Below, piece by piece: positions 1 through 60,610 of a stretch of DNA of 64,000 nt (position 1 is its first letter; each line of letters starts with the position of its first letter). Made by a program: the position numbers and the translations under genes. Origin of the DNA: Dictyostelium discoideum (Eukaryota); the NCBI GenBank assembly GCA_000004695.1, contig CM000153.2:480001-544000 (forward strand). The letters are read 5' to 3'. Below the pieces are notes generated by a model. That model did not search any database and was not told the DNA's origin. It was given only the letters and a program-made list of their open reading frames with translations.

Positions 1-41
1 AAATTATTAAAATTTTTAAAACCTTTTTTTAAAACAAAGCC

Positions 42-364
42 ATGACATCTCAAAATTGGAAAAATTGTTTTAATAAAAAAGCAATTGAGGTTATTGAAAT
101 TCATAGATCTCAGGAAACAATCACTGTTGAAACAGTAAATAATGAAGATAAAATCAAGAATAATATTTCAAAACCCAAAATTAAAGTACATAAAAAACCA
201 ATAATTAAATCAATTTCAAAGTTAAAATTACAACCAAAATTTTCGTAAGTAAAAACATTTTAAATTCTTTTTTTTTTTTTTTTTTTTTCATGAAAAAAAA
301 CATTTTAAATTCTTTTTTTTTTTAATTTTTTTTTATTTATTTTTTTTTTATTATTATTACTATA

Positions 365-397
<33 letters not shown>

Positions 398-401
398 TTT
401 A

Positions 402-439
<38 letters not shown>

Positions 440-496
440 TTATTATTATTTGTATTATTTTTTAATAAAAAAATAATTTAAAAAATTCTAATATTT

Positions 497-543
<47 letters not shown>

Positions 544-2423
544 AAGGAGATACAATGATATTATTGATTATTCAATTGATTTCAATTGTAATAAAAATTA
601 TTTCTTAAAACAAGATAAAGTTAGTGGTAATACTTTTATTCATGTTTTTTGTGAAAAAAGAGAATCAAAAATAAATTTAGAATCTGATATTGAAAATTTA
701 AAATGTTTGGGAAAGGAAACGATTGAAGCAAGGAATAATAATAAGGAAATTGCACTATTTTCAACTTTAAAAAACCAATGCCTTGGTTTAAAAATAATGC
801 ATGAATTAATTTCAAGAAATGTTATGTTCATTGATGATAATGGTAAAGATGAGTTACTAGTAAAATGTTTAGAAGAGGGTAGAGTTGATATGGTGAAATA
901 TTTAATTACCGTTGATATTAATTTGATCTCAAAATTAAAGAGAATATGCCAAATTACCCAATTAAGCCTAGAAACACTTCAATTTGTCGAATTAATTAAT
1001 TCAGAATATGAAAAAATCGTAGAAATTGGTTTAAAATCTGCAGGTAGAGAATACATTAAATTGTTTTTCATTCAATTTATTTTGGGTAATTTTTCAAAAG
1101 AATCAATCATCCAAACAATTGATGAATATAAATTACCACCAATTCCAAAAGAAATTGAAGATTTTTTCTTTGTTTATAATTATCAAATGTGTGACTTTGT
1201 TAAATTAACTGAAATCAAACCACGTTACCTCAATGAAATTTCTAAAATAAATATCTATCCAATTGGTCAAGTCTCCATTGAAAGAAGAAATGAACTCGGT
1301 CGTGGTGGTAATGGTACCGTTTATTCAGGTGTATTAAAAGAGATTGATAGTCAAGGTAATGAAATTTCAATACCAGTTGCAATCAAAATACCAACTCAAT
1401 TCTATAAATCAAAATTGGTTGAAGTATATAAAGAGTTGGCTATTCATCAAAAGATTAATGGTATTTGTGGTCCAAAGTTATTTGGATGCGTAAAGTTAAA
1501 TGTTGGATTTGGTATTATAATTGAAAGATTTGATTGTAGTTTACATGACTATATTCAAAATAATAATATCGATTTCGATTTATTTTTTGAATTGGCTCTT
1601 AAAATGGTTATAACAATTAGAAATCTACACAAATGTCATTTAAATGAAATATTCCATCGTGATATTAAACCACACAACTGGTTAGTATGTATATTATTTT
1701 AATACTTTTTCATTTTTCATTTTAATATTATAATTTAATTTAACTCTTTGTATTTTTATTTATTTATTTTAGGTTAAAAAAACTAAAGATGAATTGGTGG
1801 TCGTTTTATCTGATTTTGGTTTATCAAGAGAGAATAGTGAAACAAATGAAAATACTCTTCAGAAATATAGAGGAACATCAGTATTTATTCCACCAGAATT
1901 AAATGATAATATCTTATATAATGAAAAATCAGATATATACTCTTTGGGTGTATCATTTATGATGTTGCTTTATAAAGTTGTTTATGGCAAAATGGAAAAC
2001 CCATTTTATGAATTCAAAATTTCAAAAATGGAATACTTCAAAACAGTTGTTGCTTTAGAGAACTTTTTAGTACCAATTGTACCAACATTTTTACCTGATT
2101 CTTTTAAAGAGTTCTTGTTCTCAACAATGAATAGAATCTATACATGTCGTCCAAATTCTGAAGAATGTGTAGAAAGACTCATAACACTAAAGACTGAATA
2201 TGAAAATGATAAAACCAAATGGCAAGTAAATAGTGCTATTATACAAAAAGAAAAATCATTACTCACTGATTCAATAATTTCACAACAATTGAAATTAATG
2301 AACCAAGTTAAAAAATTTGTTCAAGAAAATGATAAATTCGTTTTTTTGAAGAAAACAAAATTATTTTTTTCAGAATCTGAAATTAAACAATATCTTTTGT
2401 CAATAATAAAATGTCAAGAATGA
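42..2423 (+). CDS. Ankyrin-repeat protein kinase (TKL-like), 3 exons: 42..244, 547..1684, 1773..2423 (663 aa)
   Basis: The Gly-loop GRGGNGTVYSG, catalytic loop HRDIKPHNWL and DFGLSRE motifs are present, with ankyrin-like repeats N-terminal to the kinase domain. The donor of intron 1 is GTAAGT at 245 and the acceptor is AG at 545-546, giving phase 2. Intron 2 runs 1685..1772 (GTATGT...TTTTAG) and splits the codon after HNWL. The exon lengths sum to 1992 nt, which is 664 codons. Confidence 0.7.
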
Positions 2424-2874
2424 AAACTTTAAATAAAATTTTTTAAAAAATAAAGAAAAGAATTAATAATTAGATTATTATTGTTTTAATTTTTTTATTT
2501 TTTTTTTTTTTTTTATAATTAACTGTTATCAAATTCTGGTTTTTCAAAATAAAATAATTCTTTCTTTTTATACAATTGCTTTTAATTCATCTATAAATCT
2601 AATTTGTGATCTAGTTGATTCTAGTTTTAAATAGCTAAATTGGTAATCTAAGAAAGTTGATTCTTTATTTTTTTTTATTTTTTTATTGAACACCAAAGTT
2701 ATATCTTTTTTTTATTTTTTGAGTTTTATCTTTTAACTTTTTTTATTTTTTGAATTTCTTTTTTTTGTAATATTTTATATTGGAATGCTAATAATTATGA
2801 ATTACTTCTTTAAAATATTTTAAAGAAGAGCAATATTTTATTTTATTATTATTATTATATTAATTATTTTTTTT

Positions 2875-3700
2875 ATTATTTGATGAGCAAGCCACATCAT
2901 TGTTATTATTATTACTAATATTATTATTATTGGTTTTATTATTATTTGATGAGCAAGCTACATCATTGTTTTTATTATTACTAATTATTATTATTGATTT
3001 TATTATTATTATTTGATGAGCAAGCAACATCACCGATAGTATTATTGTTGTTATTATTACTACTATTAATATTATTGGTTTTATTATTATTAATTGATGA
3101 ACGAGCTAAATCATTATTGGTTTTATTATTATTTGATGAGCAAGCTACATCATTTTTATTATTATTACTAATATTATTATTATTATTGATTTTATTATTA
3201 TTTGATGAGCAAGCTACATCTTTGTTATTATTATTACTAATATTATTATTATTGATTTTATTATTATTTGACGAGCAAGCTACATCATTGTTTTTATTAT
3301 TACTAATATTATTATTATTGATTTTATTATTATTTGATGAGCAAGCAACATCATTGTTATTATTATTACTAATATTATTATTATTGGTTTTATTATTAAT
3401 TGATGAGCAAGCTACATTATTGTTATTATTATTACTAATATTATTATTATTATAATTGGTTTTATTATTATTTGATGAGCAAGCTACATCATTGTTATTA
3501 TTATTACTAATATTATTATTATTGATTTTATTATTTGATGAAAAAGCAACATCGCCGATAGTATTATTGTTGTTATTATTACTATTAATGATAGTGTTAC
3601 TGTTACTATCACTACTATTATTAATTGATGAACAAGCTAAATCATTGTTGTTATTATTTTTATTTTTGGAATTTCTATTTCTAAGGTTATTATTTTTTGG
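2875..3700 (-). repeat. Coding minisatellite of about 12 copies of a roughly 66-bp unit encoding DVACSSNNNKINNNNISNNNNN; the array continues past the stop codon
   Basis: The core tgatgagcaagctacatc (the reverse complement encodes D-V-A-C-S-S) recurs on the plus strand at about 2882, 2948, 3015, 3096, 3144, 3207, 3270, 3335, 3401, 3475, 3537 and 3627. The stop TAG at 2983..2981 lies inside the array, and two further degenerate copies sit at 2875-2980. Confidence 0.85.
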
Positions 3701-6413
3701 AATTCTTAATGGATCTTCAGCCATTATAATATTGTCATACATATCCAAAAAAATCATTCTTTGATTATTATAAACTTCCCTCGTTTGTAAATATTCATCT
3801 CCTTTTGTAGAATGATTGTTTTCTACATTTTCAATTATTCTTTCCCTTTTAATTGACATAAAGAAACGTTCTGGTATTTTAAAGAAAATAATTAAAAAAA
3901 TAAATAATAGTGGTGCAAAAATTATTGTAACTAATGATATTACAATTTTTTTCCAATCTACTCGAGAACTTTCTTCTTGAGATTTGGTGTTATTGTTGAT
4001 ATATATATATTCTTTTTCTGAAATATTTTGGAATATTAAATTATACCTAGAGATATGAACTATTTGATTTGAAGTGACATTAATTTCAAATGTTGAGTTT
4101 ATTCTAGGTAAAAAGAAATTTAGCAATATATCATTTGCAATTGCACAACCTATTTCTGTTGAAAAACTATATGATATTGTGCATCTTTTCTGGCCATCAA
4201 TTATGAGACTTGTTTTTAGTGGATAAAAATTGAAACCGGATAGAGCTAATACCCAATGGTCCTTTTGATAATTGCTTATTGTGCCAACTTTATTTATTGT
4301 TGGTCCATTAAATGTTATATTAAAACTAATTGATTGATCCATTGAATTAATAATGCATTGTTCAACATGAGGACAAAAGTAATCTTCACTTTGACATGTG
4401 GAATCACATGAAAAAGAAGAATGATTTAAATATGTACAACCAAATTTATAATTACCACATTCAAGAGAAACATTTTGTTTTGAATGAAAATTTTCTCCAT
4501 CTATAAACACTATACTACCATTATTATCAAATGGTTTTGAAATTGCACCCTTAATGGTAGGTTTAATGGTTAATTCATATGGATCAGAAATAATACCACA
4601 ACAACAGATTGTAATTAGGTCACTTGTAAAATATGGTTCCTTTTTGGTTGTAATTTCATTGGAACTTATTTTTATTGGAGAAAGTGATTGGTTCGAGAAT
4701 GTAATAAATGTATTATTATAAAAGCCATAATTGTTAAATTCACCAGTACAGATTATGAATTCATCCTTTGTGTAACATGATTCTATAATTGGTTTTTTAT
4801 AATTAAATGTTGATTGGTATGATTTATTTTCAAAATTTATATTGTAACCTTTTTTACCACAACCTGGCACAATGAAAAACGAATAATCTAAATCATTTGA
4901 ATTTTTACCAATGAGTGTTCCCGTTGATTTAAATTCATCACCAAAATCTGAATAGATTGATAGTATCGGATTTTCTTTATTTTCATCATAACTTGAATTA
5001 AAAAATTTAACAATGCAATTTGATCCATTTACCATTGGTTGAGTAACAAACTTAGTTATGAATGATAAGCCAATAAAATAACTGTTTGATTGTTTTTCAT
5101 AAGATTTCACCGATATATTAATATAGGACATTGCTTCTGGAATGGTGAATGACATAACAGTCTCATTATCATTAATTTGAAGGTTTTGTAAACTAATTGG
5201 GATTTTATCATTAAATATAGTTACTGATCCTACTTCACCAAGACATTGGCCATATATTGTCAAGACACCATTGGAAATACTATAAGATGAAATAAGCGTT
5301 GAGTCATAGTTGAAATATATTTTGTTTTGGTTGGTAATACCATCTATGTTTACGGTAACTGGTAAGTTGTTATCTAAAATTCTATGAGCCATATAACAAG
5401 TAATATTATTTGGTGAAAGTGTAATAATTGAACATGGGTAATCTCCTATTTTAACCTCTGCTATAATAATTGAAGAATTCGATGTTAATCTTTCTCCATT
5501 GATATTAATTGTAGCATTTTTGTTTCTTGGAATACTATTAATTGAATTTAATACTGGAGGATATACTAAATCCATTTTATTTGAAGGTACTTTACTTGCA
5601 ATTAATTGAATTGTAAATGAAGTACAAAAGAATTCTGAATATTCAAAAATAAATTCAATATATTCATGATCATTTTTAATAATTTGTTCATTTTTAATTT
5701 TTTGATTGTTGATTAAAATTTCTTTTGGATACATTTCAGTACAGAAATTAGAGCCAATTAGTGTCACAGTTTTTTTATTTATTTCTACTTTTTCTATATA
5801 TGGATTTTGGTATGATGAATTATAAACAAACGAAAGACCAAAAATTTTAAAAAATCCACAACCACTTGGAAAAATCATTAAATATTCAGAACCGTTTTTT
5901 CCATTTGGAGATATCAAAAAATCGATTTTTTCATAATCATTTTGGAAAAGAGCGTTCTGATTTGTTGTTAATAAAAAATATGTAATATTGGATTGAAAAC
6001 TACCTCCTTTAGTTTCTGGTTTTAATTCTGGTTCAAAAATTGGTAAGATATTTGAAAAAATCCCTGGAAACTGTATACCATCTGCTGTTTTTTTTTCAGT
6101 TTGTTCACTTCCGAAAGCATGAAATTTAAAATTGTTATCAGTAGTTAAATTACACATCCTTAAATCACCATCAATATTACAATTGTAGTTGTATTCAAAA
6201 ATATCTACATTTTTTTCTTTGAATATATATTTGGAAATGTAAGATTCATTTACTTGATAAAAAAGTGTAATATATTCTTTATCTATTATATCTGTAAAAA
6301 AAATTTAAAATTAATATTTTACTTTTAATATTGATTAATCTAATTAATTACATACTCTCAAGAATTGAATATACTATTGTTATTAATAAAATTATTAACA
6401 AATAATATTTCAT
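2981..6413 (-). CDS. TgrB-like IPT/TIG-domain single-pass membrane protein (pair 1): exon 1 6356..6413 (signal peptide), exon 2 2981..6291; about 1122 aa
   Basis: The protein carries the signal peptide MKYYLLIILLITIVYSILE, followed by a phase-1 intron 6292..6355 (GTATGT donor). The ectodomain contains TIG-like motifs (FEPELKPETKGG, IPRNKNATININGERLTSNSS). The transmembrane segment is ISLVTIIFAPLLFIFLIIFF, and the cytoplasmic tail is built from DVACSS/poly-N repeats. It is a paralog of the gene at 38010-41263 and is divergently oriented to the TgrC-like gene at 7136. The family assignment comes from sequence resemblance to Dictyostelium Tgr (IPT/TIG) proteins. Confidence 0.75.
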
Positions 6414-7135
<722 letters not shown>

Positions 7136-9776
7136 ATGAAAATAATTTTAATTTCTTTACTTTTTTATTTATTTTCATTTGCTATTTCTTATGATGATGT
7201 CATTCCTTTGGGTAAATTGTTTTTATCATTTTTTTCATATCTCTTTTTTTTAATTTATTAATTATTTATTAATTATTTTTTTAGGTTATGAAAGTCACAA
7301 TGATTCTCTTGTGATTAGATATCGTGAAAGAGAAAATTATTATACAAATATTTCATTTTTATGGAATGGTAAAAGTCGTTATGATATGAGTTTTAATTGT
7401 GTTTTAAATAATACAATTAGAACTTGTACTTTACCAGTGAAAGAATCTGATCATGCCCAAATGTATTCAGAGAAAATATCTGCATGTACAGAAAATAATG
7501 GTACTTTTAAAAGGTGTGGTTATGATGTTGAGTTATTTTATTTTCCAAGTCCATTTTTAATTTCAGAGTTTAAACCAAAAACACGAGGTGGAAATACAAC
7601 ATTAAGTGGTTATTATTTAGAGTTAAAAGAAAGAATTTATGTTCCATTTGAAAGTCACTATAAAGATGATCAGTTTTATTATGCTGTAGAAGTATATACA
7701 ATTCCAGGTAAGTTTCAATCAAAAACACCAGATAGAATAAATTTAGTTTTAAAAGTTTTTCCAGGTTGTGGATACAGAACAATTATTTGGGAGAATCGTG
7801 AAAGATTAAATTTTACATATCAAGAGCCAAACATTGAAAAAATTGATATTAATCAATCATTTCTTGATATAACTGGTACAAATTTCTACAATCAATCAAT
7901 TTTGGTTTCTGTTAAAATTGATAATAATATTATTGATCCAAATGATATTATTTCAGTTGATTTTGAAATTATTAAATTAAAATTTAATTATTCAGATCCA
8001 TTCTCATCAAAATTGAATGTTCAAGTCGGTTGTTGTGATTATTGGTCAAATCAATTTCAAATTACATATCCACCAATTCCAATAAGTTCAAATAGTATTC
8101 CAAAATTAAAAGGTGGTTTATTAATAATCAATGGTAATAGATTAACTTCATCACCATCATTATCTAATAATATTAATATTTCAGTAACAGTTGGTGATTC
8201 AATTTGTTCAATTGTTTCGTCATCTTCAAATGAAATTAAATGTAATTTACAACCAATATCAAATTCAACATTTAATAATTCATCACCAATTGCTGTATCA
8301 ATAAATGGGGTTGTAAATACAAATACATTATTATTAAATTATGATATTCCATATATTACAACATTCTCTCAAGTAAATGATGAAATTCATATAATTGGTG
8401 GTTGTTTTGGTAATATTAATTCAACTCAAATTCATATCAATGATAAACAAGTTTCTGGCCAAATTAAATCAATTAATAATGATGAAACAATTTTAATATT
8501 AAAAATACAAAATCAAATTTATAATTTCAATCTTTCAATCGAATCAAATTCAATCAAATCAAATGGAATCAATGTAGATGTAAAATTGTATGCAAGTATA
8601 AATGAAATTCCATTGGTTGCTAATAAATTAATTAATTTTACATTATTTTATGTAAATTCAAGTAATATTAATTTAATACCAACAATTAAAATAATTAATG
8701 AAAAATCAAATCAAACAAGTAAATCAATTTCAACCAATGTAAATGAAAGTGTTGTATCATGTTCATTTTTAATTGAAAATAATTGTGGTATTATTAATTA
8801 TGAAATTGAAATTGGTAATCAAATATATCAATCATCATTTTCATATGAATCACCATTGATTAATAAATGTAATTTAAATTCAAATGAAATTGTTACTTGT
8901 ATTTGTAAAGGTTTTGTAAATAAATATAATGAAACAAGTATTTTTATTTCAAATCAATCAATAGCCCTTAGTAAAGAAATTAATAATAGTAGTTATGAAT
9001 CAATATCATTTCAAATGAAAGATGAGTATAATATTCTTGGTGAATTGTATTTAAATGTATGTGGTTTATTATCAAATAAAGTAATTATTAATACATTTCC
9101 AATTTTTAAAAATGTATCGATTCCTAACTTGTTTGGTACAAATGGTGGTAATATCATTATTATTGGTAAATATTTAAATAATAATACAAATATTACAATT
9201 GAATGTAATGGTGAACAAATTATTATAGAAAAAGAATGTAAATTAAAAAATAGTAGTACATCATTAGAATGCAACATTAATTTAAATGGTCCAAATGATA
9301 AAACTTGTAAATTATTATTTAATAATGATAATAGTATAGTATCAACATTTAATTTAATATACAAATCACCATCAATTAATCAAACCAGTATAATTAATTT
9401 AAAACAAGGAGGTATTTTAACAATTATTGGTAATGATTTCTATTATCCAATTGATAAAGTTACAATAATTGGTAATGGTAATGGTAGTGGTAATAGTAGT
9501 AGTTTAAATTGTAATGAAGCAAAGTATATTAATGATACAATTATAACATGTTTTATTCAAGCAACTAATTATACATTTAATAATATTAAAAATGGTGAAA
9601 TGATATTTATCAATGTTTCAACCAATGGTAAAAGTGGTATATCAAAAGTATTCAAATATTTAACTCAATCTGATGATATCCATCAATACTCTGATGCTAG
9701 AAATATCTTTCAAAATCTATTATTATCAATTTTAATCATATTAATCATTTCATTATTATTCATTTCAAATCTTTAA
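7136..9776 (+). CDS. TgrC-like IPT/TIG-domain cell-surface protein (pair 1): exons 7136..7211, 7285..9776 (855 aa)
   Basis: The signal peptide is MKIILISLLFYLFSFAIS, and a phase-1 intron follows it (GTAAAT donor at 7212, TTTTTAG acceptor ending at 7284). The ectodomain has FPSPFLISEFKPKTRGGNTTLSGYYLEL and IPKLKGGLLIINGNRLTSS motifs and many N-glycosylation sequons. The protein ends in the hydrophobic stretch LLLSILIILIISLLFISNL with no cytoplasmic tail, so it may be either GPI-anchored or a transmembrane protein. Confidence 0.75.
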
Positions 9777-9845
9777 AAAAAAACCATAAATTAATAAATA
9801 AATACATTAATAGTTTAAAAATTTTTTTTTTTTTTATTTATAATT

Positions 9846-9881
<36 letters not shown>

Positions 9882-10973
9882 GTATTTGGAAATTCGATTA
9901 ATCCACTTAATAGATTGTTCGTTATTTATTTTTATCATTCGTTGTATTTTCGGATAGTGACCAGGTGGATGAATGGCAAAAAAGCACGACAATAAACAGA
10001 AATTTATAACTCTTTAATGATCATTTTCAAAACTATCAGATGCCCAGACTACAGCTTTTATTCTCGTGATTAATCAACAAAGTTATCAATACATTCTTTA
10101 ATTTCATCAATAAGTGATTTGGAAAACTTAATTTGTTTTCTTTTTTGGTTTACTCATATCTTTTTAATTTGATTATTTTGATTAATTTATGGTGAATTTG
10201 TCAATAATTTTGTTTATTATTGTTTCTGTTGCACCTAAGAACAAAAGTACAATTTATTGTGGGTAGTGATGATGATATTGTTGCAAATTAAATTTAGCAT
10301 AAAAAATATTAAATAATTTTTTCTCTAATACTTTCTTTTAAATTATTATTATTATCATTATTTATTGTTGTGGGGAATTTTTACAGCAAAATACACTATG
10401 TATAGGTAGTGAAAAAATTCATTAAAAATTTTTTTTTTTTTAATATTAAAAACTATTAATTTAACCAAAACAATAAAAAACTATTTATAAACAGTTATCC
10501 AATTGTTTTAAGATTAAATAACAATTTACTTTCAAATTTGCGCCAAAATTTTTTTTAACACTTTAATGATGAAATTTTTACATCCAACCACCCTCAAAAA
10601 ATATTGTATAATTATGATTTTTTTTTTTTAAATAGGAAAATTACCCATTCATTTTATTATGTGAGAAAAAGGGGTTTATTTTTTATTTTATTTAAAAGAT
10701 TTAAATATATGATATATACACATCCAACAATCAACAACCAGCAATATATATATAAATGGCAGATATTATCGTGCCAGTTTTTTAATTGTTTTTATTTTGT
10801 TTTCATAATTGAAGCATTAAAAAAAAAAAAAAAAAAAAATATATTTACAAAAAGGGATTTTTTTTTTTTTTCAGAATTCATTAGGTTCCTCAAATAAATT
10901 AATTTCTAAAATGTTATTCAGTATGTATTATTAAAATAAATAAATAATAAATGAACTATATAAACTAATAAAC

Positions 10974-11013
<40 letters not shown>

Positions 11014-11930
11014 ATTTAGAATCATTACAATCAATCTCAAGGGTTAGCTCAGTCCAAAAGAATCACATTTTGAAATTTTAAAAAAAAAAATTAAAGAGTT
11101 TGAAATAAGTTTATTTTGAGAAAAATGTGGTGTTTTTTTTTTAAAAAAAATATATTATTATCTAATATTTTAAATTTTCAAGGAATTTTATTTAATTCTA
11201 TTTTTAATTATTCATTATTATTTAAAATAATTTTTAAAACAAAAACAAATAGAATTATATTTAATTCTATTTTTAATTATTATTATTATTTTTTTATTTT
11301 TATTTTTTTATTTTTATTTTTTTTATTTTTATTTTTTTATTTTTTTTTGGTTATCATATTATTCAAACCACTAAAAGTTCTTTCAATATCAATAGTTGAT
11401 TGTGACAATCAAACAGATCTTTTGAAGTTCACAATTCTTTAGGTAAAAAGCCTTTTTTTTTTTTTTTTTTTTCTTTCTTTGACCAATTCATTAATTACAA
11501 TTTTATTATTTGATTTATTTAATTTTTAATACTTATATATTTGAAATTGGATATTAAAAAAAAAAAAAAAAAAAAAAAGTAAAATTTAAACGTTTGAACA
11601 GAAAATAAATTAAGATCAAAATTAATAAATTAAAGTAAAAGTTTTTTTTTTTTTTTTATGAATAATTATTTTTAATTATTGGTATGAAATTACAATAGCA
11701 ATAATTAACTTAATTATTAATTGTTTAAAGATTTTATTTATTATTTAAAATAATTTATTAAAAGTTTTATTCTTTGTTTATCGATTAAAAGATATATTGT
11801 TGTTGCTTAATTAATTATTTGTGAAAATTTTAAGTTGATTGTGTGGTAGTATTGATAAATTGTATAATGAAATATTAATATTTTAATATTGGTGATTATT
11901 TATTGATCTGTAACAATAGGTGGAAATTCT

Positions 11931-15564
<3,634 letters not shown>

Positions 15565-15899
15565 CTTTTAGTGATACGTAAAAAATTATTATTATAATTA
15601 ATTTTTTTTATTTTAAGAAATCTTTATATTTAATTTGTATTTATTTGTGTTTTTTATTTTTTTTTTTTATTTAATCTAATCTTTATGTATATTTTTTTTT
15701 TAATGTTTTTTTTTTTATTGGTATTTTTATTTTTATTTTTTTTTTTTGTTTTTATTCAATTTATTTTCTAAATTTATTATTTATTTATTTAAATTTATTT
15801 ATTTTTCAATTAATCCCAAACACCCAAACATGTCCTCATAAAAAAAAAAAAAATAAATAAAACAAAAGGAATTCTAGAAAAAAATAAAAAAAAAATAAA

Positions 15900-16430
15900 T
15901 TAAAAAATACACAATCACTACATTATTGTTATTTTGCACTTCGACACACTTGCACAATTTCTTAAAAAAAAAAACTAAAATTAAAAAAAAAAAACAAATA
16001 ATTAATTGCACTACTCAACCATATCATAGTGCAATTTTATTAAATTTTTTTTAAAAAAAAAAAAAGGTGAATAGAAAAAAAAAAAATACATCAAATTGGA
16101 AATGGAAAAAAAAAGAAATATAAAAATTAACACAAATACCACTACATTATATTTTTTTTTTTTTCTTACATCAACACACTTGAAAAATTATTTTTAAAAA
16201 AATGAATAAATAAAACACAACCACTATGATATAATTATGTGGGCGTAGATTTTGAGTGTATATATATAAAAATATAAAAAAAAAATTAAAAATTAAAAAA
16301 AAAATAAATGCACACATTAAATACGAAAACGGAAAAAAAAAAAAAATCACACAATCACCACTCTATTTTTGCACTTCACACACTTTTTAAAAATACACAA
16401 CCACCACCACAATATATAATTATAAAGTAA
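15900..16430. repeat. Three degenerate copies of a roughly 60-bp CA-rich element (ACACAATCAC..TTTTGCACTTC(G)ACACACTT)
   Basis: The copies lie at about 15908-15965, 16130-16200 and 16346-16425. They sit in the 1.6-kb intergenic region between the 5' end of the kinase gene at 15564 (minus strand) and the oxidase gene starting at 17204. Confidence 0.45.
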
Positions 16431-17203
16431 AAAAAAAAAAAGAATAAATTTATTTTTGTTTGTTTATTATAATTATTATTATTATTATTTTTATTTTTAT
16501 TATTATTATTATTTTTTTATTTTTTTATTTTTTTTTTTGTTTTTATTTATTTTTCAAACACCCAGATTATCTATAAATGGATAAAACCAATAATTGTATT
16601 TGTGTTATGTTGACAAAACTGCAGTACCTACCCCAAACCAAAAAAAAAAAAAAAAAAAAAAAAAAAATTCTCACATAGTTCAACATAACACTCTGCAAAT
16701 CTTGAGAAGTATATAAAAAAATAAAATAAAAATAAAAATAGTGGTTGTTCAATGTGATATGACGATGGTGGACAATTAAAAAAAAAAAAAAATTAAAAAA
16801 AAAATTAAAAAAAAAAAAAGTTTTTTTTTTTGAATATTTTTTGTTTTCCATTTTATGGTTTTGTTTTGCGAAATTCAGCTTTTTTAAAAAATGTTTTATA
16901 AAAACAATCAATGACAATAAATATTAATTTAAATAAATAATCTCACCCAACACTTTAAATAATATTTTTTTTTTTTTTTTTTTTTTAAATAAATTTTTTC
17001 ACAGGTTCAAATTTTTTTTTGTTTTTTTTTTTTTTCAATAAATTTTTTTAATCATTATTTCAAAAATGTGATTCTTTTTTTTTTTATTAAAATCTCAATG
17101 AAACGACATATAAAAAAATTGATATATTTTTTTTTTTTTTTTTTTTTTTTAATTTTTTAAGATTTTTTTTTTATTTTGATGTAAATAACTTTTTTATCAA
17201 AAA

Positions 17204-18607
17204 ATGGAAGAAATAAAAAATGATTACACTTTTGTAGATGAATCAGATAAAAAAGATCAAAAAATAAATTTTAAAAACTTTAGAAAAAGAATTCAAGGTC
17301 AAACATTTATGAAAGATGATTTGGAATATGATAAGATTTGTAATGAAAGGTGGGATCTTAATTCAACGAATTCTCCAATAATTATTGTAAAAGCAATTAA
17401 TGAAAATGATGTTGAAGAAACTATTAAATTTGTTAGAGATAATAAAAAATTAAAATTAGTTATTAAGAATACAGGTCATAATAATATATCAGCAATTGAT
17501 GGCTGTGATGGTGTATCGTTAGATATTAGTTTAATGAAATCAATATCAGTTGACCAACAAAACCAAACTGTTACAGTTGGTGGTGGTTGCACATTTCATG
17601 ATATTGACCAAGTTACATCTCAATATGGTTTGGCAACTCCGTTAGGTCAAATTTCATCAGTTGGAGTTGGTGGATATAGCACAGGTGGTGGAATAGGTCA
17701 TTTAACAAAATTATATGGTTTATCAAGTGATAATTTATTAGAATGTAAAATTATTACATCAAATGGAGAATCAAAAGTTTGTAATAAACATACAAATTCA
17801 GATTTATTTTGGGTAGTTAGAGGTGCAGGTGGATTTATAGGTGTTATAGTTTCATTTACATTCAAATGTTACCTAATTTCAAATGTAGTTGTTGGATCAT
17901 TTGTTTATAATATTGATGAAACAAATAATAATGCAAAGAATGCATTGGTTGAAGTTGGTAAAAGACATTTAAATTCAACAGATCCATTAGTTTATGTTAT
18001 TAATATTAATGCTGGTTCACCTAACAATGTTTTAATAAAAGTTTTATATTTTTTAGATATTAATACTCCAAATTCATCAATGATTGGTGAATCATTAATT
18101 CAAGATTTCCAAAATTTGACAAAACCAACAACATCTTCAATTTCAATTATTTCATATACAAAATTGCAATGGGAATTTGATGGAATAATTTTACCAGGTA
18201 AATATTATCAAGAGGGACCATTATTAAAATCAACAATTACTTCTGAAGTTGCTGATTTACTTTTACAAGCAATATCAAATCGTAATCAACAAACATTTTC
18301 CTCAATTATCATTACTGAACTTGGAGGTATGGCTAACAAAGTTCATCAAAATGAAAGTGCATTCCCAATTAGAGATTCAACATTTAATATTTTCATCTCC
18401 TCTATAATCTTTACACCATCCTTAGAACAACCTCTAAAAGATTGGACAAAAAATACAATTCATCTCTTAAAGGATCATATTTCTGGTGAATACATTAATA
18501 CAAGTTATTCAACAGATATGAAATTAATTTTCAAAGAAAACTTTGAAAGATTAAAAAAATTAAAAAATCAGTATGATCCAAATAATATATTCCGTTCATT
18601 AAATTAA
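17204..18607 (+). CDS. FAD-linked oxidoreductase, berberine-bridge-enzyme (BBE)-like (467 aa)
   Basis: The FAD-binding PCMH-type region contains LVIKNTGHNNISAIDGCDGVSLDISLM and TVTVGGGCTFHDID. The C-terminal BBE motif is KLKNQYDPNNIFRSLN. It is a single exon. Confidence 0.8.
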   Translation: MEEIKNDYTFVDESDKKDQKINFKNFRKRIQGQTFMKDDLEYDKICNERWDLNSTNSPIIIVKAINENDVEETIKFVRDNKKLKLVIKNTGHNNISAIDGCDGVSLDISLMKSISVDQQNQTVTVGGGCTFHDIDQVTSQYGLATPLGQISSVGVGGYSTGGGIGHLTKLYGLSSDNLLECKIITSNGESKVCNKHTNSDLFWVVRGAGGFIGVIVSFTFKCYLISNVVVGSFVYNIDETNNNAKNALVEVGKRHLNSTDPLVYVININAGSPNNVLIKVLYFLDINTPNSSMIGESLIQDFQNLTKPTTSSISIISYTKLQWEFDGIILPGKYYQEGPLLKSTITSEVADLLLQAISNRNQQTFSSIIITELGGMANKVHQNESAFPIRDSTFNIFISSIIFTPSLEQPLKDWTKNTIHLLKDHISGEYINTSYSTDMKLIFKENFERLKKLKNQYDPNNIFRSLN

Positions 18608-18764
18608 AAATAAATAAATAAATAAATAAAAATAATAATAATTAATTTTTAAAAAATAATAAAGTTGTGATAAAAAAAAAAAAAAAAAAAAATATTATTA
18701 TTATAGTTATAATTAATTTTTTGAAAATTTTATTTATTAAATAATTTTTTAATACATTAAAAAA

Positions 18765-20435
18765 TTAAAGTACAAAAATAATTAAATTAATAACTAGAAT
18801 TGAAATAAAGAGCCAACCAATGGATAGTTTATTTGAAGAACTATTTTCATCCTTTTTAACTACCTTTGGTTCAACAAAATATTGAGCTTCACATGCTGAT
18901 AATTTAGTTTCATTACTACAACGTTCTGGTGTTCTTGGAATTGAAAGGTTTGGAGCTTCAACATCTGATAGGTTAATGGATGCAAAGTATTCTTCAGTAA
19001 GTGTACAATTCAATGTTGAATTTACTAAAGAGTATGCCTCGGAAAGAACTGGGGTATCTAAAAACAATTGAGTCATATTATTAATTAATAACATTAATTG
19101 ATCAATTTTGTTTTGAGTATCTTCACTAATTTTTACACTTGAATCATTCCAAAATTTAAACAATTCTATTCTAATTTGAACTGTATCTAATTTATTAATT
19201 TCAGAAGTAATATTAATAAATTGTTTTCTAGTTTCTTTGAAAAGTGTATAATTATGTTTTTCATTTAAAATAAATTCAAATCTCTTTGCAAATGGATATG
19301 ATCTTTGTTGTCTTGGATAACGTGTTTGAATTGATACACTTGATTTAAATTCACAATGGTATGGATCAATATCTTCAATTTCTTCAGTAAAACATTGACA
19401 GCCCTGTTCAACTGAAGAGGTCACAGCATTGTGAAGTTTCCAGAAAAAGGCGGCAATTGAACGTTTATCATCAGCTCTTACAGTTGAAAGTTTTGCAATT
19501 AAGTCACCACCTGTTCCTCCCATTAATAAATGTTCGATTGGGAAGAAACGAACTGCCTCACTAGAGTAACTATCACGGGCATATCTATCGTTTACTAATA
19601 CTTTTGAAATCATATGTTCTCTACAGAATGGACATGCATGATTTAATGGGAAATAGACCATGAAATTTTTAAACTTTTCAGTTAAACTTGTATAAACAGT
19701 TGTAGTACTATTACCACTACTTTCACATGACGAATCTGAAACTCTTTGAGCAATAATATGGAAAACGGCCCACAATGAACGACCAAGGTATGTTGGGAAG
19801 CCAACTCTCATTTGCTGAGTTTTTGTATAATCACCACCAGTATATTTATCAAGGAATGGAATATATAGACCAGCATCAAAATCTAATCTTCTATTAATGT
19901 TTTCTCTTTGCTTATAAATACTTGTCATATAAGTACCAATCATATACCAAATATCTTGTTTCATTTTATCATTATCAAAGTTTTCTAAAAGATCATCAGA
20001 TACAAATTCGTGGTCCTCTATTTTACTGCCATTAAAGCCACATGAGAAAGCATTCAAAGCGGTTGGTAAAAATACGGAATCCCACCAAGTTGCATTCACT
20101 GGATATGGATCAGGTTGAGCCAATTGATTTACAAATAAACTTCTTAAAGTTGCAACATTTGAATTACATTCAGGATCGAATTGAAGAGCAACATATAGAT
20201 CCAAATAGTTGATTACCATTCCTCTATATTCATTCCATTGGTATGGTCTTCCGCCTTTGATTTTATCATCTTCACACCATTCTCTATCTTTTTGAGCATT
20301 TCTATAGGCAGCAGCTGTAAGAAATTGAAAAGATGCTTTTTGAATCTCTTGTTTTTTTGAAATATCACCAGTATGGAATCCAAAAATTAATTCTACAAAT
20401 AAAATTGTTATAAATATAAATATTAATCTATTCAT
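18765..20435 (-). CDS. Secretory/membrane protein with an Erv1/ALR-type sulfhydryl oxidase domain (556 aa)
   Basis: The N-terminal signal peptide is MNRLIFIFITILFVELIFG. The Erv-like core contains LGRSLWAVFHIIAQR and a CxxC in YFPLNHACPFCREHM. A C-terminal transmembrane segment IGWLFISILVINLIIFVL follows, and no thioredoxin CGHC motif was seen. Confidence 0.5.
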   Translation of the reverse strand: MNRLIFIFITILFVELIFGFHTGDISKKQEIQKASFQFLTAAAYRNAQKDREWCEDDKIKGGRPYQWNEYRGMVINYLDLYVALQFDPECNSNVATLRSLFVNQLAQPDPYPVNATWWDSVFLPTALNAFSCGFNGSKIEDHEFVSDDLLENFDNDKMKQDIWYMIGTYMTSIYKQRENINRRLDFDAGLYIPFLDKYTGGDYTKTQQMRVGFPTYLGRSLWAVFHIIAQRVSDSSCESSGNSTTTVYTSLTEKFKNFMVYFPLNHACPFCREHMISKVLVNDRYARDSYSSEAVRFFPIEHLLMGGTGGDLIAKLSTVRADDKRSIAAFFWKLHNAVTSSVEQGCQCFTEEIEDIDPYHCEFKSSVSIQTRYPRQQRSYPFAKRFEFILNEKHNYTLFKETRKQFINITSEINKLDTVQIRIELFKFWNDSSVKISEDTQNKIDQLMLLINNMTQLFLDTPVLSEAYSLVNSTLNCTLTEEYFASINLSDVEAPNLSIPRTPERCSNETKLSACEAQYFVEPKVVKKDENSSSNKLSIGWLFISILVINLIIFVL

Positions 20436-20578
20436 TTTTTATATTTAATAATACTAACAATAAAAAAAAAAAAAAACAAAAAAAAAAAAAACAATTTAAA
20501 GTTTTTTTTAATGATGTTTTAAATAAATTATAATTTAAAAGTTATACCCTACCCCACCCACACACACAATCAAAAAGT

Positions 20579-20621
<43 letters not shown>

Positions 20622-21208
20622 ATATAATTTTATAAAAATAAAAAACCATTGTGGGTGTTATTTTTGCTGTCTTTGATTGAAAATTGATTTATACCACCAT
20701 TCAAATAAAAAAAAAAATTAGAACCTCAATGATTTATAAGAAAAAAAAAAAAAGACAGAAATAATAAAAATAATATTTAAAATAAAAATTAGAAAAAATA
20801 AATAATGTAAATTACCAACCACATCAAAAAAAAAAAATAATGTGGCAGATTTTTGAAATGAATTCATTCAACCTTTACTATTTTTTAAATACAGGAATAT
20901 TAAAAAAAAAAAAAAAAAAAAAAAATATATAATATAATAATCGCAAATCAGTTTTTTTTTTTTTAACCACTTCTAAAAATCCATTTTTAAATTAAACAAT
21001 CAAAAAAAAAAATCACAATCTTAAGATTTATTTTTTGTTTTTTTTTTGAATGAAAAAAAATCATTAAAACAGTTAAATTATCACTTTTTGAATTTATAAA
21101 TCGTTTGGTATGTTTATTATATTTTTATAGACTCATTAAAGTTGATAAAATAAAAAATTTTAATCATAGACCATTAAAGATTTAGAGGTAATTAATTTTA
21201 TAAAAAAT

Positions 21209-21240
<32 letters not shown>

Positions 21241-21257
21241 TTATTATTATTTATTTA

Positions 21258-24200: not shown

Positions 24201-24748
24201 ATCGACATATCTATATTCATTTGAATATTGACGAATACTACTACTGGTGGTACCATTTCCAGGTATATAAGCCAAACCAGTTAAACTTGAGTCAATAATT
24301 TTAATAGGTTTCGTTAGATTGGATTGCATTGAAATTAATGGTACAGTTTCATCAACCATATATACTATGAATAATGAATCATTATGTGTATAATGTGGTA
24401 ATAATTTTGTAATTGAATGATTGAAATCATTTGGATTGTATGGATTTCTATAAACCATACCATAAGGATATTGATTGATTACAAAATCAAATGGTTGTAA
24501 TTGTACTTTTAACAATTGTCTATGATAATCCAATCTAAAGTTTATCATAAATAATTGTGCTGAACTATTATAAATTTCAGTTTGATAACCAACAGCTTTT
24601 CTTTGAGTAGTGATTTGAGGTAAACGAGAAACATTTTCAATTAAAATTTGTTTTGATCTATAATCTAAAAATTTTGATATTGTTGATGTATAATTTGTTT
24701 GAGTATTACCACCACTATTATCATCATCGCTACTATTACTAATATCAT

Positions 24749-24822
<74 letters not shown>

Positions 24823-38009: not shown

Positions 38010-41263
<3,254 letters not shown>

Positions 41264-51953: not shown

Positions 51954-51998
<45 letters not shown>

Positions 51999-52160
51999 CC
52001 ACAACAACAACAACAGCAACAACAACAGCAACAACAACAGCAACAACAACAGCAACAGCAACAATTTAATAATAGTTTTGAAAATGGGGGAATTAAGTTA
52101 CCTAGACCATTATCACCAACATTTTTAAATATTAATAATAATATCATCAATAGTAATTTA

Positions 52161-52210
<50 letters not shown>

Positions 52211-59789: not shown

Positions 59790-59879
59790 GTGCTTATTAC
59801 GATACATATAACAAATTATATGAGTAACGCAAATAATAATAATTACAATCACAATAATAATAAAGAAACACAATCTGGA

Positions 59880-59932
<53 letters not shown>

Positions 59933-60535: not shown

Positions 60536-60610
<75 letters not shown>

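What the first reader, a model, noticed from the sequence alone, without database searches (positions are those of the whole stretch)
2981..9776. Divergent TgrB-like/TgrC-like IPT/TIG membrane-protein gene pair resembling the Dictyostelium allorecognition locus
Two large ectodomain proteins with TIG-like modules (..KPxTRGG.., IP(K/R)xKxxxIxIxGxRLTSS) are encoded head-to-head from a shared 722-bp promoter. The minus-strand gene encodes a transmembrane protein with a long repeat-built cytoplasmic tail, as a receptor would. The plus-strand gene ends in a hydrophobic C-terminus with no tail, as a ligand or GPI-anchored protein would. Both genes have a short signal-peptide exon followed by a phase-1 intron. 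This is the architecture described for tgrB1/tgrC1 (self/non-self recognition in Dictyostelium). These copies have features I do not associate with the described pair, namely the DVACSS tail repeats and the flanking kinases.
Basis: partly seen in the sequence, partly recalled or inferred. Interest (0 to 1): 0.85.

Follow-up and report, generated by a model that had tools for sequence, protein, structure and literature searches.

The report
Known tgrH1–tgrI1 tiger gene pair
The flagged region is the already annotated tgrH1/tgrI1 gene pair of Dictyostelium discoideum, a paralogue of the tgrB1/tgrC1 self-recognition genes that is laid out the same head-to-head way but belongs to different subfamilies and has no known function.

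Summary
Two intron-containing genes lie head-to-head across a 722-bp spacer. The minus-strand gene (2981..6413) encodes 1122 aa and the plus-strand gene (7136..9776) encodes 855 aa. Both products match annotated D. discoideum AX4 chromosome 4 proteins exactly (XP_639150.1, XP_639151.1). A published tgr-family alignment identifies them as tgrH1 (DDB_G0283323) and tgrI1 (DDB_G0283335).

They are true "tiger" (tgr) family members, with a signal peptide, IPT/TIG domains and a membrane anchor. Head-to-head tgr pairs repeated in clusters are already described in two 2025 papers. A second copy sits in this window (frameshifted tgrH plus tgrI2, 38010..44733).

"TgrB-like/TgrC-like" holds for architecture only. 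TgrH1 and TgrI1 resemble each other (27–28% identity, 183–199 bits) far more than TgrC1 (76/104 bits) or a TgrB-like protein (37/50 bits). The published tree places H and I outside the B/E/J and C/D/K clades.

The DVACSS-repeat tail, tail-less TgrI C-terminus and flanking kinases are real. Published expression is low and unequal, and no function is known. A receptor/ligand role is an inference.

Verdict: already known, low interest.

The parts
2981..6291 (-). tgrH1 exon 2, including the stop codon TAG at 2981..2983. It encodes residues 20-1122.
   Evidence: Gene model. Exact 1122-aa match to XP_639150.1/Q54R97. Named tgrH1 (DDB_G0283323) by matching the published alignment.
6292..6355 (-). tgrH1 intron (GTATGT..CAG, phase 1)
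   Evidence: The splice sites are validated by the exact protein match.
6356..6413 (-). tgrH1 exon 1, encoding the signal peptide MKYYLLIILLITIVYSILE
5324..5557 (-). IPT/TIG domain of TgrH1 (residues 265-342)
   Evidence: Pfam PF01833 scores 3.8e-11 (43.3 bits, cutoff 20.9) on the ectodomain without the tail.
3881..3946 (-). TgrH1 transmembrane helix (residues 802-823, IVISLVTIIFAPLLFIFLIIFF)
   Evidence: Sequence inspection. The AlphaFold2 model has a helix at 799-822.
2984..3880 (-). TgrH1 cytoplasmic tail (299 aa). A conserved juxtamembrane segment of about 70 aa (FKIPERF.., GDEYL, FLDMYDNIIM) is followed by an Asn-rich region with nine D[VL]A[CF]SS motifs.
   Evidence: The juxtamembrane motifs are also present in H homologues P0037, P0038 and P0039 and in the second H copy of the window.
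2843..3553 (-). 66-nt tandem repeat array (10.9 copies, 79% matches) that encodes the DVACSS units. Two units (2881..2898, 2947..2964) lie beyond the stop codon in another reading frame.
   Evidence: TRF, motif search with 14 hits against 0 expected, six-frame translation
6414..7135 (.). 722-bp divergent intergenic region, the presumed bidirectional promoter. It contains an (ATT)n tract at 6885..7087 and a GC-richer block at about 6762..6828.
   Evidence: No sequence conservation with the spacer of the second pair.
7136..7211 (+). tgrI1 exon 1, encoding the signal peptide MKIILISLLFYLFSFAISYDDVIPL
7212..7284 (+). tgrI1 intron (GTAAAT..TAG, phase 1)
   Evidence: Validated by the exact 855-aa match to XP_639151.1.
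7285..9776 (+). tgrI1 exon 2, including the stop codon TAA
   Evidence: Named tgrI1 (DDB_G0283335) through the published alignment. CDS length 2568 nt matches Table S3.
7560..7820 (+). TgrO1-like Ig domain of TgrI1 (residues 118-204)
   Evidence: Pfam PF24612 scores 1.4e-26.
8082..8327 (+). IPT/TIG domain of TgrI1 (residues 292-373)
   Evidence: Pfam PF01833 scores 1.2e-5, 25.6 bits, above the cutoff of 20.9.
9708..9773 (+). C-terminal hydrophobic anchor of TgrI1 (..NLLLSILIILIISLLFISNL) with no cytoplasmic tail. It is either a tail-less TM segment or a GPI-attachment signal.
   Evidence: The last ~30 residues are nearly invariant in homologues from D. discoideum, D. citrinum and D. firmibasis.
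42..2423 (+). Flanking protein kinase K1, convergent with tgrH1
   Evidence: ORFs at 707..1702 and 1794..2423 carry the two halves of Pfam Pkinase. The AX2 gene model is 663 aa.
11931..13712 (-). Flanking protein kinase K2, a paralogue of K1 and convergent with tgrI1. The AX2 model extends to about 15527.
   Evidence: Pfam Pkinase. K1 and K2 share 24-28% identity over their full length and have the same intron site.
38010..41160 (-). Second tgrH copy, frameshifted near 40095 (a pseudogene in this assembly). It is head-to-head with tgrI2 and also carries DVACSS repeats.
   Evidence: tblastn gives 52-53% identity in two frames. ORFs, frame analysis, Pfam TIG 4.3e-7.
42108..44733 (+). tgrI2 (DDB_G0283317), 850 aa, 78% identical to TgrI1
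   Evidence: Exact match to XP_639162.1 (P0015). Named through the published alignment.

Best explanation
The region is the annotated tgrH1 (minus strand) and tgrI1 (plus strand) gene pair on chromosome 4 of Dictyostelium discoideum AX4. It is one of the many head-to-head pairs of the roughly 64-member tgr ("tiger") family of surface proteins, defined by a transmembrane anchor, IPT/TIG or Ig E-set domains, and repeats. It is a paralogue of the tgrB1/tgrC1 allorecognition pair, not a copy of it. H and I belong to the fast-duplicating A/H/I/O group.

Shown:
- The identity of both genes and their family membership.
- The divergent layout.
- A multi-Ig/IPT ectodomain in both products.
- A single-pass TgrH1 with a 299-aa cytoplasmic tail.
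- A tail-less TgrI1.
- Significant, though relaxed, purifying selection on both genes.

Inferred (about 40% likely): the pair works like TgrB1/TgrC1. TgrI1 would be a membrane-tethered cue without signalling capacity. TgrH1 would be the receptor that binds it through its Ig/IPT ectodomain and signals through its conserved juxtamembrane segment and DVACSS-repeat tail. This would operate in some cell-cell recognition or adhesion context other than standard clonal development, where expression is low.

Also inferred: the pair arose by inverted duplication of one ancestral tgr gene, possibly together with a neighbouring kinase gene, and independently of the B/C split.
For: - Exact protein matches to AX4 entries.
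- The published alignment names the genes tgrH1, tgrI1 and tgrI2. CDS lengths agree with Table S3.
- Pfam Ig_TgrO1 and TIG hit TgrI1. TIG hits the TgrH1 ectodomain at 3.8e-11.
- The AF2 model of TgrH1 is all-beta with a TM helix. The top Foldseek hit is the plexin A4 ectodomain, followed by CEA, DSCAM, contactin and MET.
- The literature states that many tgr genes are in head-to-head pairs duplicated in clusters with intervening non-tgr genes. This window shows exactly that, with a second pair 32 kb away.
- H1-I1 score 183-199 bits, against 76 and 104 bits to TgrC1 and 37 and 50 bits to a TgrB-like protein. The published tree agrees.
- dN/dS is 0.45 for I1 and 0.48 for H1 against the closest copies in another strain. 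Both are below 1, with Fisher p = 2e-5.
- The order K1 kinase, tgrH, tgrI, with H and I head-to-head, is conserved in D. citrinum.
- Extra I copies are retained while duplicate H copies decay. This mirrors the reported retention of extra tgrC and degradation of duplicate tgrB genes, which fits a ligand role for I and a receptor role for H.
Against: - No functional data exist. Holland et al. state that the functions of the TgrA, H, I and O proteins are unknown.
- Expression during development is low and unequal: 9 reads for tgrI1 against 1 for tgrH1 at 9 h. This does not support tight co-regulation from the shared spacer.
- I copies outnumber intact H copies. tgrI2 sits next to a frameshifted H, so a strict 1:1 cognate pairing is not required.
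- The two H copies in the window are far more diverged (dS 0.65-0.86) than the two I copies (dS 0.18, mosaic from 0.03 to 0.37), so the partners do not co-evolve as a unit.
- The TgrH1 tail (299 aa, with repeats) differs in length from the short TgrB1 intracellular domain (L846F lies within a ~900-aa protein). I had no TgrB1 tail sequence to compare motifs.
- TgrI1 lacks the short basic tail (FKIPFRVKKF..) that TgrC1 has.
Confidence: 0.85

Rival explanations
1. The pair is the allorecognition locus itself, or a recent duplicate of it. The minus gene would then be a TgrB/E/J-clade member and the plus gene a TgrC/D/K-clade member.
For: The head-to-head layout is the same and the spacer size is comparable (722 against 524 bp). 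The signal-peptide exon with a phase-1 intron is shared with a TgrC-type gene. The receptor-like and tail-less asymmetry is similar.
Against: - tgrB1/tgrC1 lie on chromosome 3, whereas these proteins map to the 5.45-Mb chromosome 4 record.
- The published alignment names them tgrH1 and tgrI1.
- The tree places H and I outside the BEJ and CDK clades.
- BLASTP gives H1 against a TgrB-like protein only 37 bits, and I1 against TgrC1 104 bits at 23% identity. Both are weaker than H1 against I1.
Confidence: 0.01
2. The pair is a product of birth-and-death turnover with little or no present function. On this view the genes are idle or decaying duplicates that at most serve as a reservoir of sequence for gene conversion within the family.
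For: - Expression is low (Table S3 and the legend of Fig. S2).
- The neighbouring H copy is frameshifted.
- The tgrH1 repeat array runs past its stop codon in another frame.
- Copy number and arrangement differ between strains.
- dN/dS of 0.45-0.63 is high for a housekeeping-type gene, and dS along I1/I2 is mosaic, which suggests gene conversion.
- The family is described as a birth-and-death family with 26 pseudogenes.
Against: - Both ORFs are intact over 1122 and 855 codons in an AT-rich genome.
- dN/dS is significantly below 1 (p = 2e-5).
- The H-I head-to-head pair with its K1 neighbour is retained in D. citrinum.
- The TgrI C-terminal anchor and the TgrH juxtamembrane motifs are conserved across strains and species.
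Confidence: 0.25
3. TgrH and TgrI are functional but do not act as a cognate receptor/ligand pair. Each would act on its own, for example in homophilic adhesion or in binding non-self targets such as prey or other species. The head-to-head layout would then be only a relic of an inverted duplication.
For: - H and I are each other's closest relatives, together with O. This fits an origin by inverted duplication.
- I copies outnumber H copies, and some I genes lack an intact H partner.
- Divergence of partners is unequal between the two pairs.
- Read counts are unequal.
- There is no spacer conservation between the two pairs.
Against: - The only characterised head-to-head tgr pair works as ligand and receptor.
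- The complementary design, one partner with a long conserved tail and the other with none, is maintained across species.
Confidence: 0.25

Closest known systems
tgrB1/tgrC1 allorecognition (greenbeard) locus of D. discoideum, chromosome 3
   Same: - Same gene family (tgr).
- Head-to-head genes with a short shared spacer (524 against 722 bp).
- Multi-Ig/IPT ectodomains.
- One partner has a cytoplasmic domain (TgrB1, TgrH1) and the other has essentially none (TgrC1, TgrI1).
- A TgrC-type gene shares the signal-peptide exon and phase-1 intron.
- Both loci vary in copy number between strains, retaining extra copies of the ligand-like partner and losing duplicate copies of the receptor-like partner.
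   Different: - Different subfamilies and chromosome.
- H and I are closer to each other than to B or C. B and C are deeply separated clades.
- The TgrH1 tail is 299 aa with DVACSS repeats, whereas TgrB1 has a short, nearly invariant intracellular domain.
- TgrI1 ends within its hydrophobic segment, whereas TgrC1 has a TM segment plus a short basic tail.
- Expression at 9 h is roughly 6- to 55-fold lower.
- No demonstrated role in recognition or development.
Other head-to-head tgr pairs and clusters (tgrD1/tgrE1, tgrJ1/tgrK1, tgrF1/tgrG1, tgrM1/tgrM2) described by Polo Prieto et al. 2025 and Holland et al. 2025
   Same: It shares the general organisation reported for the family. Members are paired divergently, the two partners have low similarity to each other, and pairs are duplicated into clusters with non-tgr genes in between. 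tgrH/tgrI is one of these clusters.
   Different: D/E and J/K are duplicates of the C/B pair, lying in the CDK and BEJ clades. H/I is a separate lineage within the rapidly duplicating A/H/I/O group.
Metazoan multi-IPT/Ig cell-surface receptors (plexins, MET, DSCAM, contactins)
   Same: The predicted TgrH1 ectodomain is a string of beta-sandwich domains. Its best structural match is the plexin A4 ectodomain at E 5e-12.
   Different: There is only about 10% sequence identity. TgrH1 has no sema, PSI or kinase/GAP domains. The resemblance is at the level of domain fold only, not orthology.

Membership tests
Tgr (tiger) family of Dictyostelium | N-terminal signal sequence | tested here: met
   Both products start with a short hydrophobic leader (MKYYLLIILLITIVYSIL.., MKIILISLLFYLFSFAIS..) encoded by a separate first exon. 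This was judged by inspection only, with no signal-peptide predictor.
Tgr (tiger) family of Dictyostelium | IPT/TIG or Ig E-set extracellular repeats | tested here: met
   - TgrI1: PF24612 Ig_TgrO1 at 1.4e-26 and PF01833 TIG at 1.2e-5.
- TgrH1 ectodomain: PF01833 at 3.8e-11.
- The AF2 model is all-beta, with plexin and Ig-receptor fold hits.
- PF24612 was not detected in TgrH1.
Tgr (tiger) family of Dictyostelium | Membrane anchor near the C-terminus | tested here: met
   TgrH1 has a TM segment at residues 802-823. TgrI1 has a C-terminal 20-residue hydrophobic segment. Whether the latter is a TM anchor or a GPI signal is undetermined.
Tgr (tiger) family of Dictyostelium | Listed and named as a tgr gene in the reference annotation and published family set | tested here: met
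   The sequences match tgrH1_Ax4 and tgrI1_Ax4 in Dataset S3 of Holland et al. The gene table gives DDB_G0283323 and DDB_G0283335.
TgrB/E/J clade (for the minus-strand gene) | Closest sequence relatives and tree position within the BEJ clade | tested here: not met
   - The published ML tree places H on its own 1.31-long branch, with unresolved placement (support 4.2/38). BEJ groups with N and F.
- H1 scores 37 bits (E 6e-5) against a TgrB-like protein from L003, compared with 183-204 bits against I- and O-type proteins.
- Caveat: the B-like reference is the divergent neighbour of a TgrC1-like gene in another strain and is C-terminally incomplete. AX4 TgrB1 itself could not be retrieved.
TgrC/D/K clade (for the plus-strand gene) | Closest sequence relatives and tree position within the CDK clade | tested here: not met
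   - I1 against AX4 TgrC1 (trimmed sequence from the published alignment) gives 104 bits and 23% identity. I1 gives 199 bits to H1 and 238-264 bits to O-like proteins.
- The tree places I as a weak sister of O. CDK groups with L and S.
tgrB1/tgrC1-type allorecognition system (functional) | Divergent gene pair sharing a short promoter region | tested here: met
   The spacer is 722 bp, compared with 524 bp for tgrB1/tgrC1.
tgrB1/tgrC1-type allorecognition system (functional) | Coordinated, strong expression at aggregation (about 8-10 h) | tested here: inconclusive
   - Evidence comes from the literature only. At 9 h there are 9 reads for tgrI1 and 1 for tgrH1, against 55 for tgrB1 and 75 for tgrC1.
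- The legend of Fig. S2 says most tgr genes other than B1, C1 and M1 are low or undetectable in AX4 development.
- This points against the feature, but counts are tiny and other conditions are untested.
tgrB1/tgrC1-type allorecognition system (functional) | Extreme polymorphism between strains | tested here: inconclusive
   - The closest copies in strain assembly GCA_054859385.1 differ by dS 0.10 (I) and 0.13 (H) and by 9-13% at the amino-acid level. The published genome-wide mean nucleotide diversity is 0.003.
- The pair is multiplied and rearranged there, so orthology is uncertain.
tgrB1/tgrC1-type allorecognition system (functional) | Heterophilic, allele-specific binding of the two products; requirement for development and for segregation of strains | not testable with these tools
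   This needs binding assays, knock-outs and allele swaps. The literature states that the functions of TgrA, H, I and O are unknown.

The most novel reading that the evidence does not exclude
TgrH and TgrI could form a second recognition module that arose independently of TgrB and TgrC by inverted duplication of a [tgr + kinase] unit. TgrI would be a tail-less or GPI-anchored cue with an unusually conserved membrane anchor. TgrH would be its receptor. The Ser/Cys-rich DVACSS-repeat tail of TgrH would be modified by the two paralogous kinases that flank the pair in mirror symmetry (K1 then tgrH, tgrI then K2). A kinase of this K1/K2 family is also adjacent to tgrH/I genes in D. citrinum and D. 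firmibasis. The module would act in a context not covered by standard clonal development, such as chimeric mixing, the sexual cycle or interspecies contact.
Probability: 0.1. Interest if true: 0.6.

Novelty: already known. Interest (0 to 1): 0.15.

Why it matters
As a discovery it adds little. The genes are annotated and named, and two 2025 studies already describe the paired, clustered organisation of tgr genes and the rapid turnover of the H and I subfamilies.

The residual value is as a pointer. tgrH/tgrI reproduces the receptor-like/ligand-like, head-to-head design of the only characterised tgr pair, yet it comes from a different lineage of the family. It could therefore test whether that design is a general recognition module in social amoebae. 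It also comes with a conserved and unexplained kinase neighbourhood and tail motif.

Tried and rejected
- Retrieving AX4 TgrB1/TgrC1 by homology search failed. The word-index searches with TgrI1, the TgrH1 ectodomain and a 26-sequence family profile returned only I/H-type relatives and unrelated TIG proteins.
- Name look-ups on ten family representatives gave no "Tiger B1/C1" names.
- Benabentos et al. 2009 is not held in the library.
- TgrC1 was finally taken from the trimmed alignment of Holland et al.. TgrB1 lies in the part of that file that was cut when stored. I therefore used the divergent neighbour of a TgrC1-like gene in another strain as the B-type reference.
- I tested whether the kinase beside that B-like gene is related to K1/K2. 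It is an AGC-type kinase with no significant similarity, so kinase flanking is not a shared feature of the BC and HI loci.
- I looked for a conserved promoter element between the two H-I spacers in the window and in a BC-type locus. Only simple repeats matched.
- I tried to use the neighbouring BBE-oxidase gene as a between-strain divergence control by exact-protein look-up. Only AX2 carries the identical protein, so no control was obtained.
- Pfam on full-length TgrH1 found no TIG domain. This was a composition artefact of the Asn-rich tail, not absence of the domain.
- The bacterial promoter/terminator scan and the RNA-family tools were judged irrelevant for this eukaryotic protein-coding locus and were not run.
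Full report
**Observation**

The window is extremely AT-rich, with 13-30% GC per 2 kb, and has short GT..AG introns, as expected for Dictyostelium. I rebuilt both gene models from the sequence.

- The minus-strand gene starts at 6413. It has a 58-nt first exon, a phase-1 intron at 6292..6355 and a second exon ending with TAG at 2981..2983. The product is 1122 aa.
- The plus-strand gene starts at 7136. It has a 76-nt first exon, a phase-1 intron at 7212..7284 and a second exon ending with TAA at 9776. The product is 855 aa.
- The spacer is 6414..7135, which is 722 bp.

Both conceptual proteins are residue-for-residue identical to annotated D. discoideum AX4 proteins, XP_639150.1/Q54R97 and XP_639151.1/Q54R96. 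The latter lies on a 5,450,249-bp record, which is chromosome 4. A long-read assembly, GCA_054883475.1, is 99.8% identical to window 1..19806 and has the same gene order.

**Identity**

The plus product is 92% identical to UniProt "Tiger protein I3". The trimmed tgr-family alignment deposited with Holland et al. (bioRxiv 10.1101/2025.08.01.668227, published as PNAS PMC12745789) contains three entries whose sequences are those of window genes.

- tgrI1_Ax4 is the plus gene.
- tgrH1_Ax4 is the minus gene.
- tgrI2_Ax4 is a second plus-strand gene at 42108..44733.

The accompanying gene table gives tgrH1 = DDB_G0283323, tgrI1 = DDB_G0283335 and tgrI2 = DDB_G0283317. Exonic lengths in Table S3 of Polo Prieto et al. 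are 2568 nt for tgrI1 and tgrI2 and 3366 nt for tgrH1. These agree with my models of 2568 and 3369 nt including the stop codon.

**Family membership**

TgrI1 hits Pfam Ig_TgrO1 at 1.4e-26 and TIG at 1.2e-5. Full-length TgrH1 gave no Pfam hit above threshold. Once the Asn-rich tail is removed, its ectodomain hits TIG at 3.8e-11, which is 43 bits against a cutoff of 20.9.

An AlphaFold2 model of TgrH1 has mean pLDDT 65, rising to 70-90 over residues ~170-650. The ectodomain is all-beta, with a helix at 799-822. Its best structural matches are the plexin A4 ectodomain (E 5e-12) and other multi-Ig receptors.

A whole-library profile search found 1275 proteins at E ≤ 0.001. Full-length single-stretch matches came from dictyostelids.

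**What is already published**

Polo Prieto et al. (10.1101/2025.10.22.684067) make the following points.

- The family has about 63 annotated members.
- Many tgr genes sit in head-to-head pairs.
- The two genes of a pair often have low similarity to each other.

Holland et al. report the following.

- tgrA, H, I and O are numerous and fast-duplicating.
- Their functions are unknown.

The window illustrates this exactly. A second pair lies about 32 kb away. It consists of tgrI2 (78% identical to TgrI1) head-to-head with a tgrH copy (52-53% identical to TgrH1). That copy is frameshifted near 40095.

**Is it "TgrB-like/TgrC-like"?**

In architecture, yes. tgrB1 and tgrC1 are head-to-head with a 524-bp spacer that holds their coordinately regulated promoters (PMC12142906). 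TgrC1 acts as ligand and TgrB1 as receptor, and TgrB1 has a nearly invariant intracellular domain (PMC11088635).

A TgrC1-like gene, 73% identical to AX4 TgrC1, was fetched from another strain as locus L003. It has the same 28-codon signal-peptide exon followed by a phase-1 intron. Its divergent TgrB-like neighbour lacks that intron.

By descent, no. I read the published ML tree in full.

- The I clade (branch 0.85) is a weakly supported sister of O (63/44).
- H sits on a 1.31-long branch whose placement has no support (4.2/38).
- B/E/J group with N and F.
- C/D/K group with L and S.

My own BLASTP comparisons agree.

| Comparison | Bits | Identity |
|---|---|---|
| TgrH1 vs TgrI1/TgrI2 | 183-199 | 27-28% |
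| TgrH1 vs a D. firmibasis protein (P0041) that appears to be O-clade | 204 | 29% |
| TgrH1 vs AX4 TgrC1 | 76 | 23% |
| TgrH1 vs TgrB-like protein | 37 | 23% |
| TgrI1 vs AX4 TgrC1 | 104 | 23% |
| TgrI1 vs TgrB-like protein | 50 | 24% |

H and I are therefore each other's close relatives. The simplest origin for the pair is an inverted duplication of one gene, separate from the B/C split. One caveat applies. AX4 TgrB1 itself could not be retrieved, and the B-type reference is C-terminally incomplete.

All of them are real.

*TgrH1 tail*

- TgrH1 has a TM helix at residues 802-823 and a 299-aa cytoplasmic tail.
- The first ~70 residues of the tail (FKIPERF.., GDEYL, FLDMYDNIIM) recur in H homologues from other strains, from a sister species, and in the second H copy of the window.
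- The rest of the tail is Asn-rich, with nine D[VL]A[CF]SS motifs encoded by a 66-nt tandem repeat of 10.9 copies.
- The 18-nt motif has 10 hits at tgrH1 and 4 in the second H copy, against 0 expected.
- Two units lie beyond the tgrH1 stop codon in another frame. The AX4/AX2 tail therefore looks truncated by a frameshift.

*TgrI anchor*

- TgrI1 ends 1-3 residues after its C-terminal hydrophobic stretch, as do all of its closer (I-type) homologues examined, with one exception (P0024, a ~40-residue extension).
- The last ~30 residues are almost invariant from D. discoideum to D. firmibasis, although the ectodomains are only 61-73% identical.
- TgrC1, by contrast, has a TM segment followed by a short basic tail, FKIPFRVKKF...
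- Whether TgrI is GPI-anchored is open. S-D/A-A followed by a short spacer and a hydrophobic end fits a GPI signal. The strong conservation of the hydrophobic segment argues for a retained helix.

*Flanking kinases*

- The two flanking kinase genes (Pfam Pkinase) are paralogues of each other. They share 24-28% identity over their full length and have the same intron site.
- They face the pair in mirror symmetry: K1 runs toward tgrH1, and K2 runs toward tgrI1.
- The order K1, tgrH, tgrI is conserved in D. citrinum.
- In D. firmibasis a K2-like kinase lies next to an H remnant and two I genes.
- The kinase beside the TgrB-like gene in L003 is unrelated.

**Selection and dynamics**

I compared the AX4 genes with the closest copies in a different D. 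discoideum assembly (L002).

| Comparison | dS | dN/dS | Fisher p |
|---|---|---|---|
| tgrI1 vs L002 copy | 0.10 | 0.45 | 2e-5 |
| tgrH1 vs L002 copy | 0.13 | 0.48 | 2e-5 |

The genes are constrained but relaxed, and the N-terminal regions are the most diverged. That strain carries the pair in rearranged, multiplied form: one long H, H fragments and three I copies.

Within the window the two I genes differ by dS 0.18, with a mosaic profile from 0.03 to 0.37 that suggests gene conversion. The two H copies differ by dS 0.65-0.86. The partners therefore have different histories.

I copies outnumber intact H copies in AX4, in the other strain and in D. citrinum. This parallels the reported retention of extra tgrC genes and decay of duplicate tgrB genes.

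**Expression**

Only published data are available. Direct RNA-seq at 9 h of development gives 9 reads for tgrI1, 7 for tgrI2 and 1 for tgrH1, against 55 for tgrB1 and 75 for tgrC1. In AX4 development most tgr genes other than B1, C1 and M1 are low or undetectable. This does not show co-regulation and leans against it. No paper in the library discusses tgrH1 or tgrI1 specifically.

**Mechanism**

The following is shown.

- The two genes encode homologous surface proteins with multi-Ig/IPT ectodomains.
- One has a long cytoplasmic tail that is conserved in part.
- The other has no tail.
- They are encoded divergently.
- They are under purifying selection.
- The pair is retained as a pair in a sister species.

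By analogy with TgrB1/TgrC1, I infer that TgrI is a membrane-tethered cue and TgrH its signalling receptor, acting in some cell-contact setting. I put this at about 40%. The alternatives each sit at about 25%: that the genes act independently, or that they are largely idle products of birth-and-death turnover.

**Verdict**

The genes are the known tgrH1/tgrI1 pair, and the paired-cluster organisation is already described. "TgrB-like/TgrC-like" holds only as an architectural analogy. Novelty is "already known" and interest is low.

Noticed in passing
window 42..2423 (+) and 11931..13712 (-); L006 3871..5789; L005 2721..4478: Two paralogous protein kinases (24-28% identity over their full length, same intron position) flank the tgrH1/tgrI1 pair in mirror symmetry. 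Their divergence is about the same as that between TgrH1 and TgrI1, which suggests an ancient inverted duplication of a tgr-plus-kinase unit. The K1, tgrH, tgrI order is conserved in D. citrinum. A K2-like kinase lies next to an H remnant and two I genes in D. firmibasis.
   Followed up: partly
window 38010..41160 (-) and 42108..44733 (+): A second tgrH/tgrI pair is present. tgrI2 is intact (850 aa). Its tgrH partner has a frameshift near 40095 but keeps a TM segment, the juxtamembrane motifs and four DVACSS repeats.
   Followed up: yes
window 2843..2980: The DVACSS-encoding 66-nt repeat array continues for two more units past the tgrH1 stop codon in a different reading frame. The annotated tail therefore looks truncated by a frameshift that is shared with the AX2 assembly.
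   Followed up: partly
window 9680..9773; homologues P0002-P0029: The last ~30 residues of TgrI proteins (HQYS[DA]ARNIFQNL[LF]LSILII..ISLLF) are almost invariant across D. discoideum, D. citrinum and D. firmibasis, although the ectodomains are only 61-73% identical. This is unusual for a cleaved GPI signal and hints at a specific role for the membrane segment.
   Followed up: partly
window 7287..9773 vs 42257..44730; 2984..6289 vs 38589..41130: The partners have unequal histories. tgrI1 against tgrI2 gives dS 0.18, with a mosaic profile from 0.03 to 0.37 and local dN/dS above 1 where dS is low. tgrH1 against the second tgrH copy gives dS 0.65-0.86. This suggests gene conversion among I genes, or re-assortment of partners.
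   Followed up: partly
L002 (GCA_054859385.1, JBTAPF010000002.1) 5800..22594: In another D. discoideum strain the locus holds one long tgrH copy, tgrH fragments and three tgrI copies, one of them frameshifted. Each is about 90-92% identical in nucleotides to the AX4 genes. The locus therefore varies both in structure and in copy number.
   Followed up: partly
window 6762..6828: A GC-richer block (GGGGTACCTATATTTGGACTCATTGAGGGGTTTGAAATTGATTTACCCCATCCCACACACAC) lies inside the otherwise AT/ATT-repeat spacer. It is not found in the spacer of the second pair or in a tgrBC-type locus.
   Followed up: partly
L003 (GCA_054859385.1, JBTAPF010000026.1) 5001..12745: This is a tgrBC-type locus from another strain. 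A TgrC1-like gene (892 aa, 73% identical to AX4 TgrC1) is head-to-head, across a 449-bp spacer, with a C-terminally truncated TgrB-like gene. An unrelated AGC-type kinase lies upstream.
   Followed up: partly
window 21258..26219 (-), 50946..54789 (+), 59790..63347 (+): Other large genes lie in the window. One is a 1653-aa membrane protein with DUF7034, DUF7035 and DUF7743 domains. One is a kinase gene whose downstream ORF has an F-box/WD40-like C-terminal half, judged by eye and resembling a MEKK. One looks like a multi-pass transporter with an Asn-rich N-terminus; it was also judged by eye.
   Followed up: no
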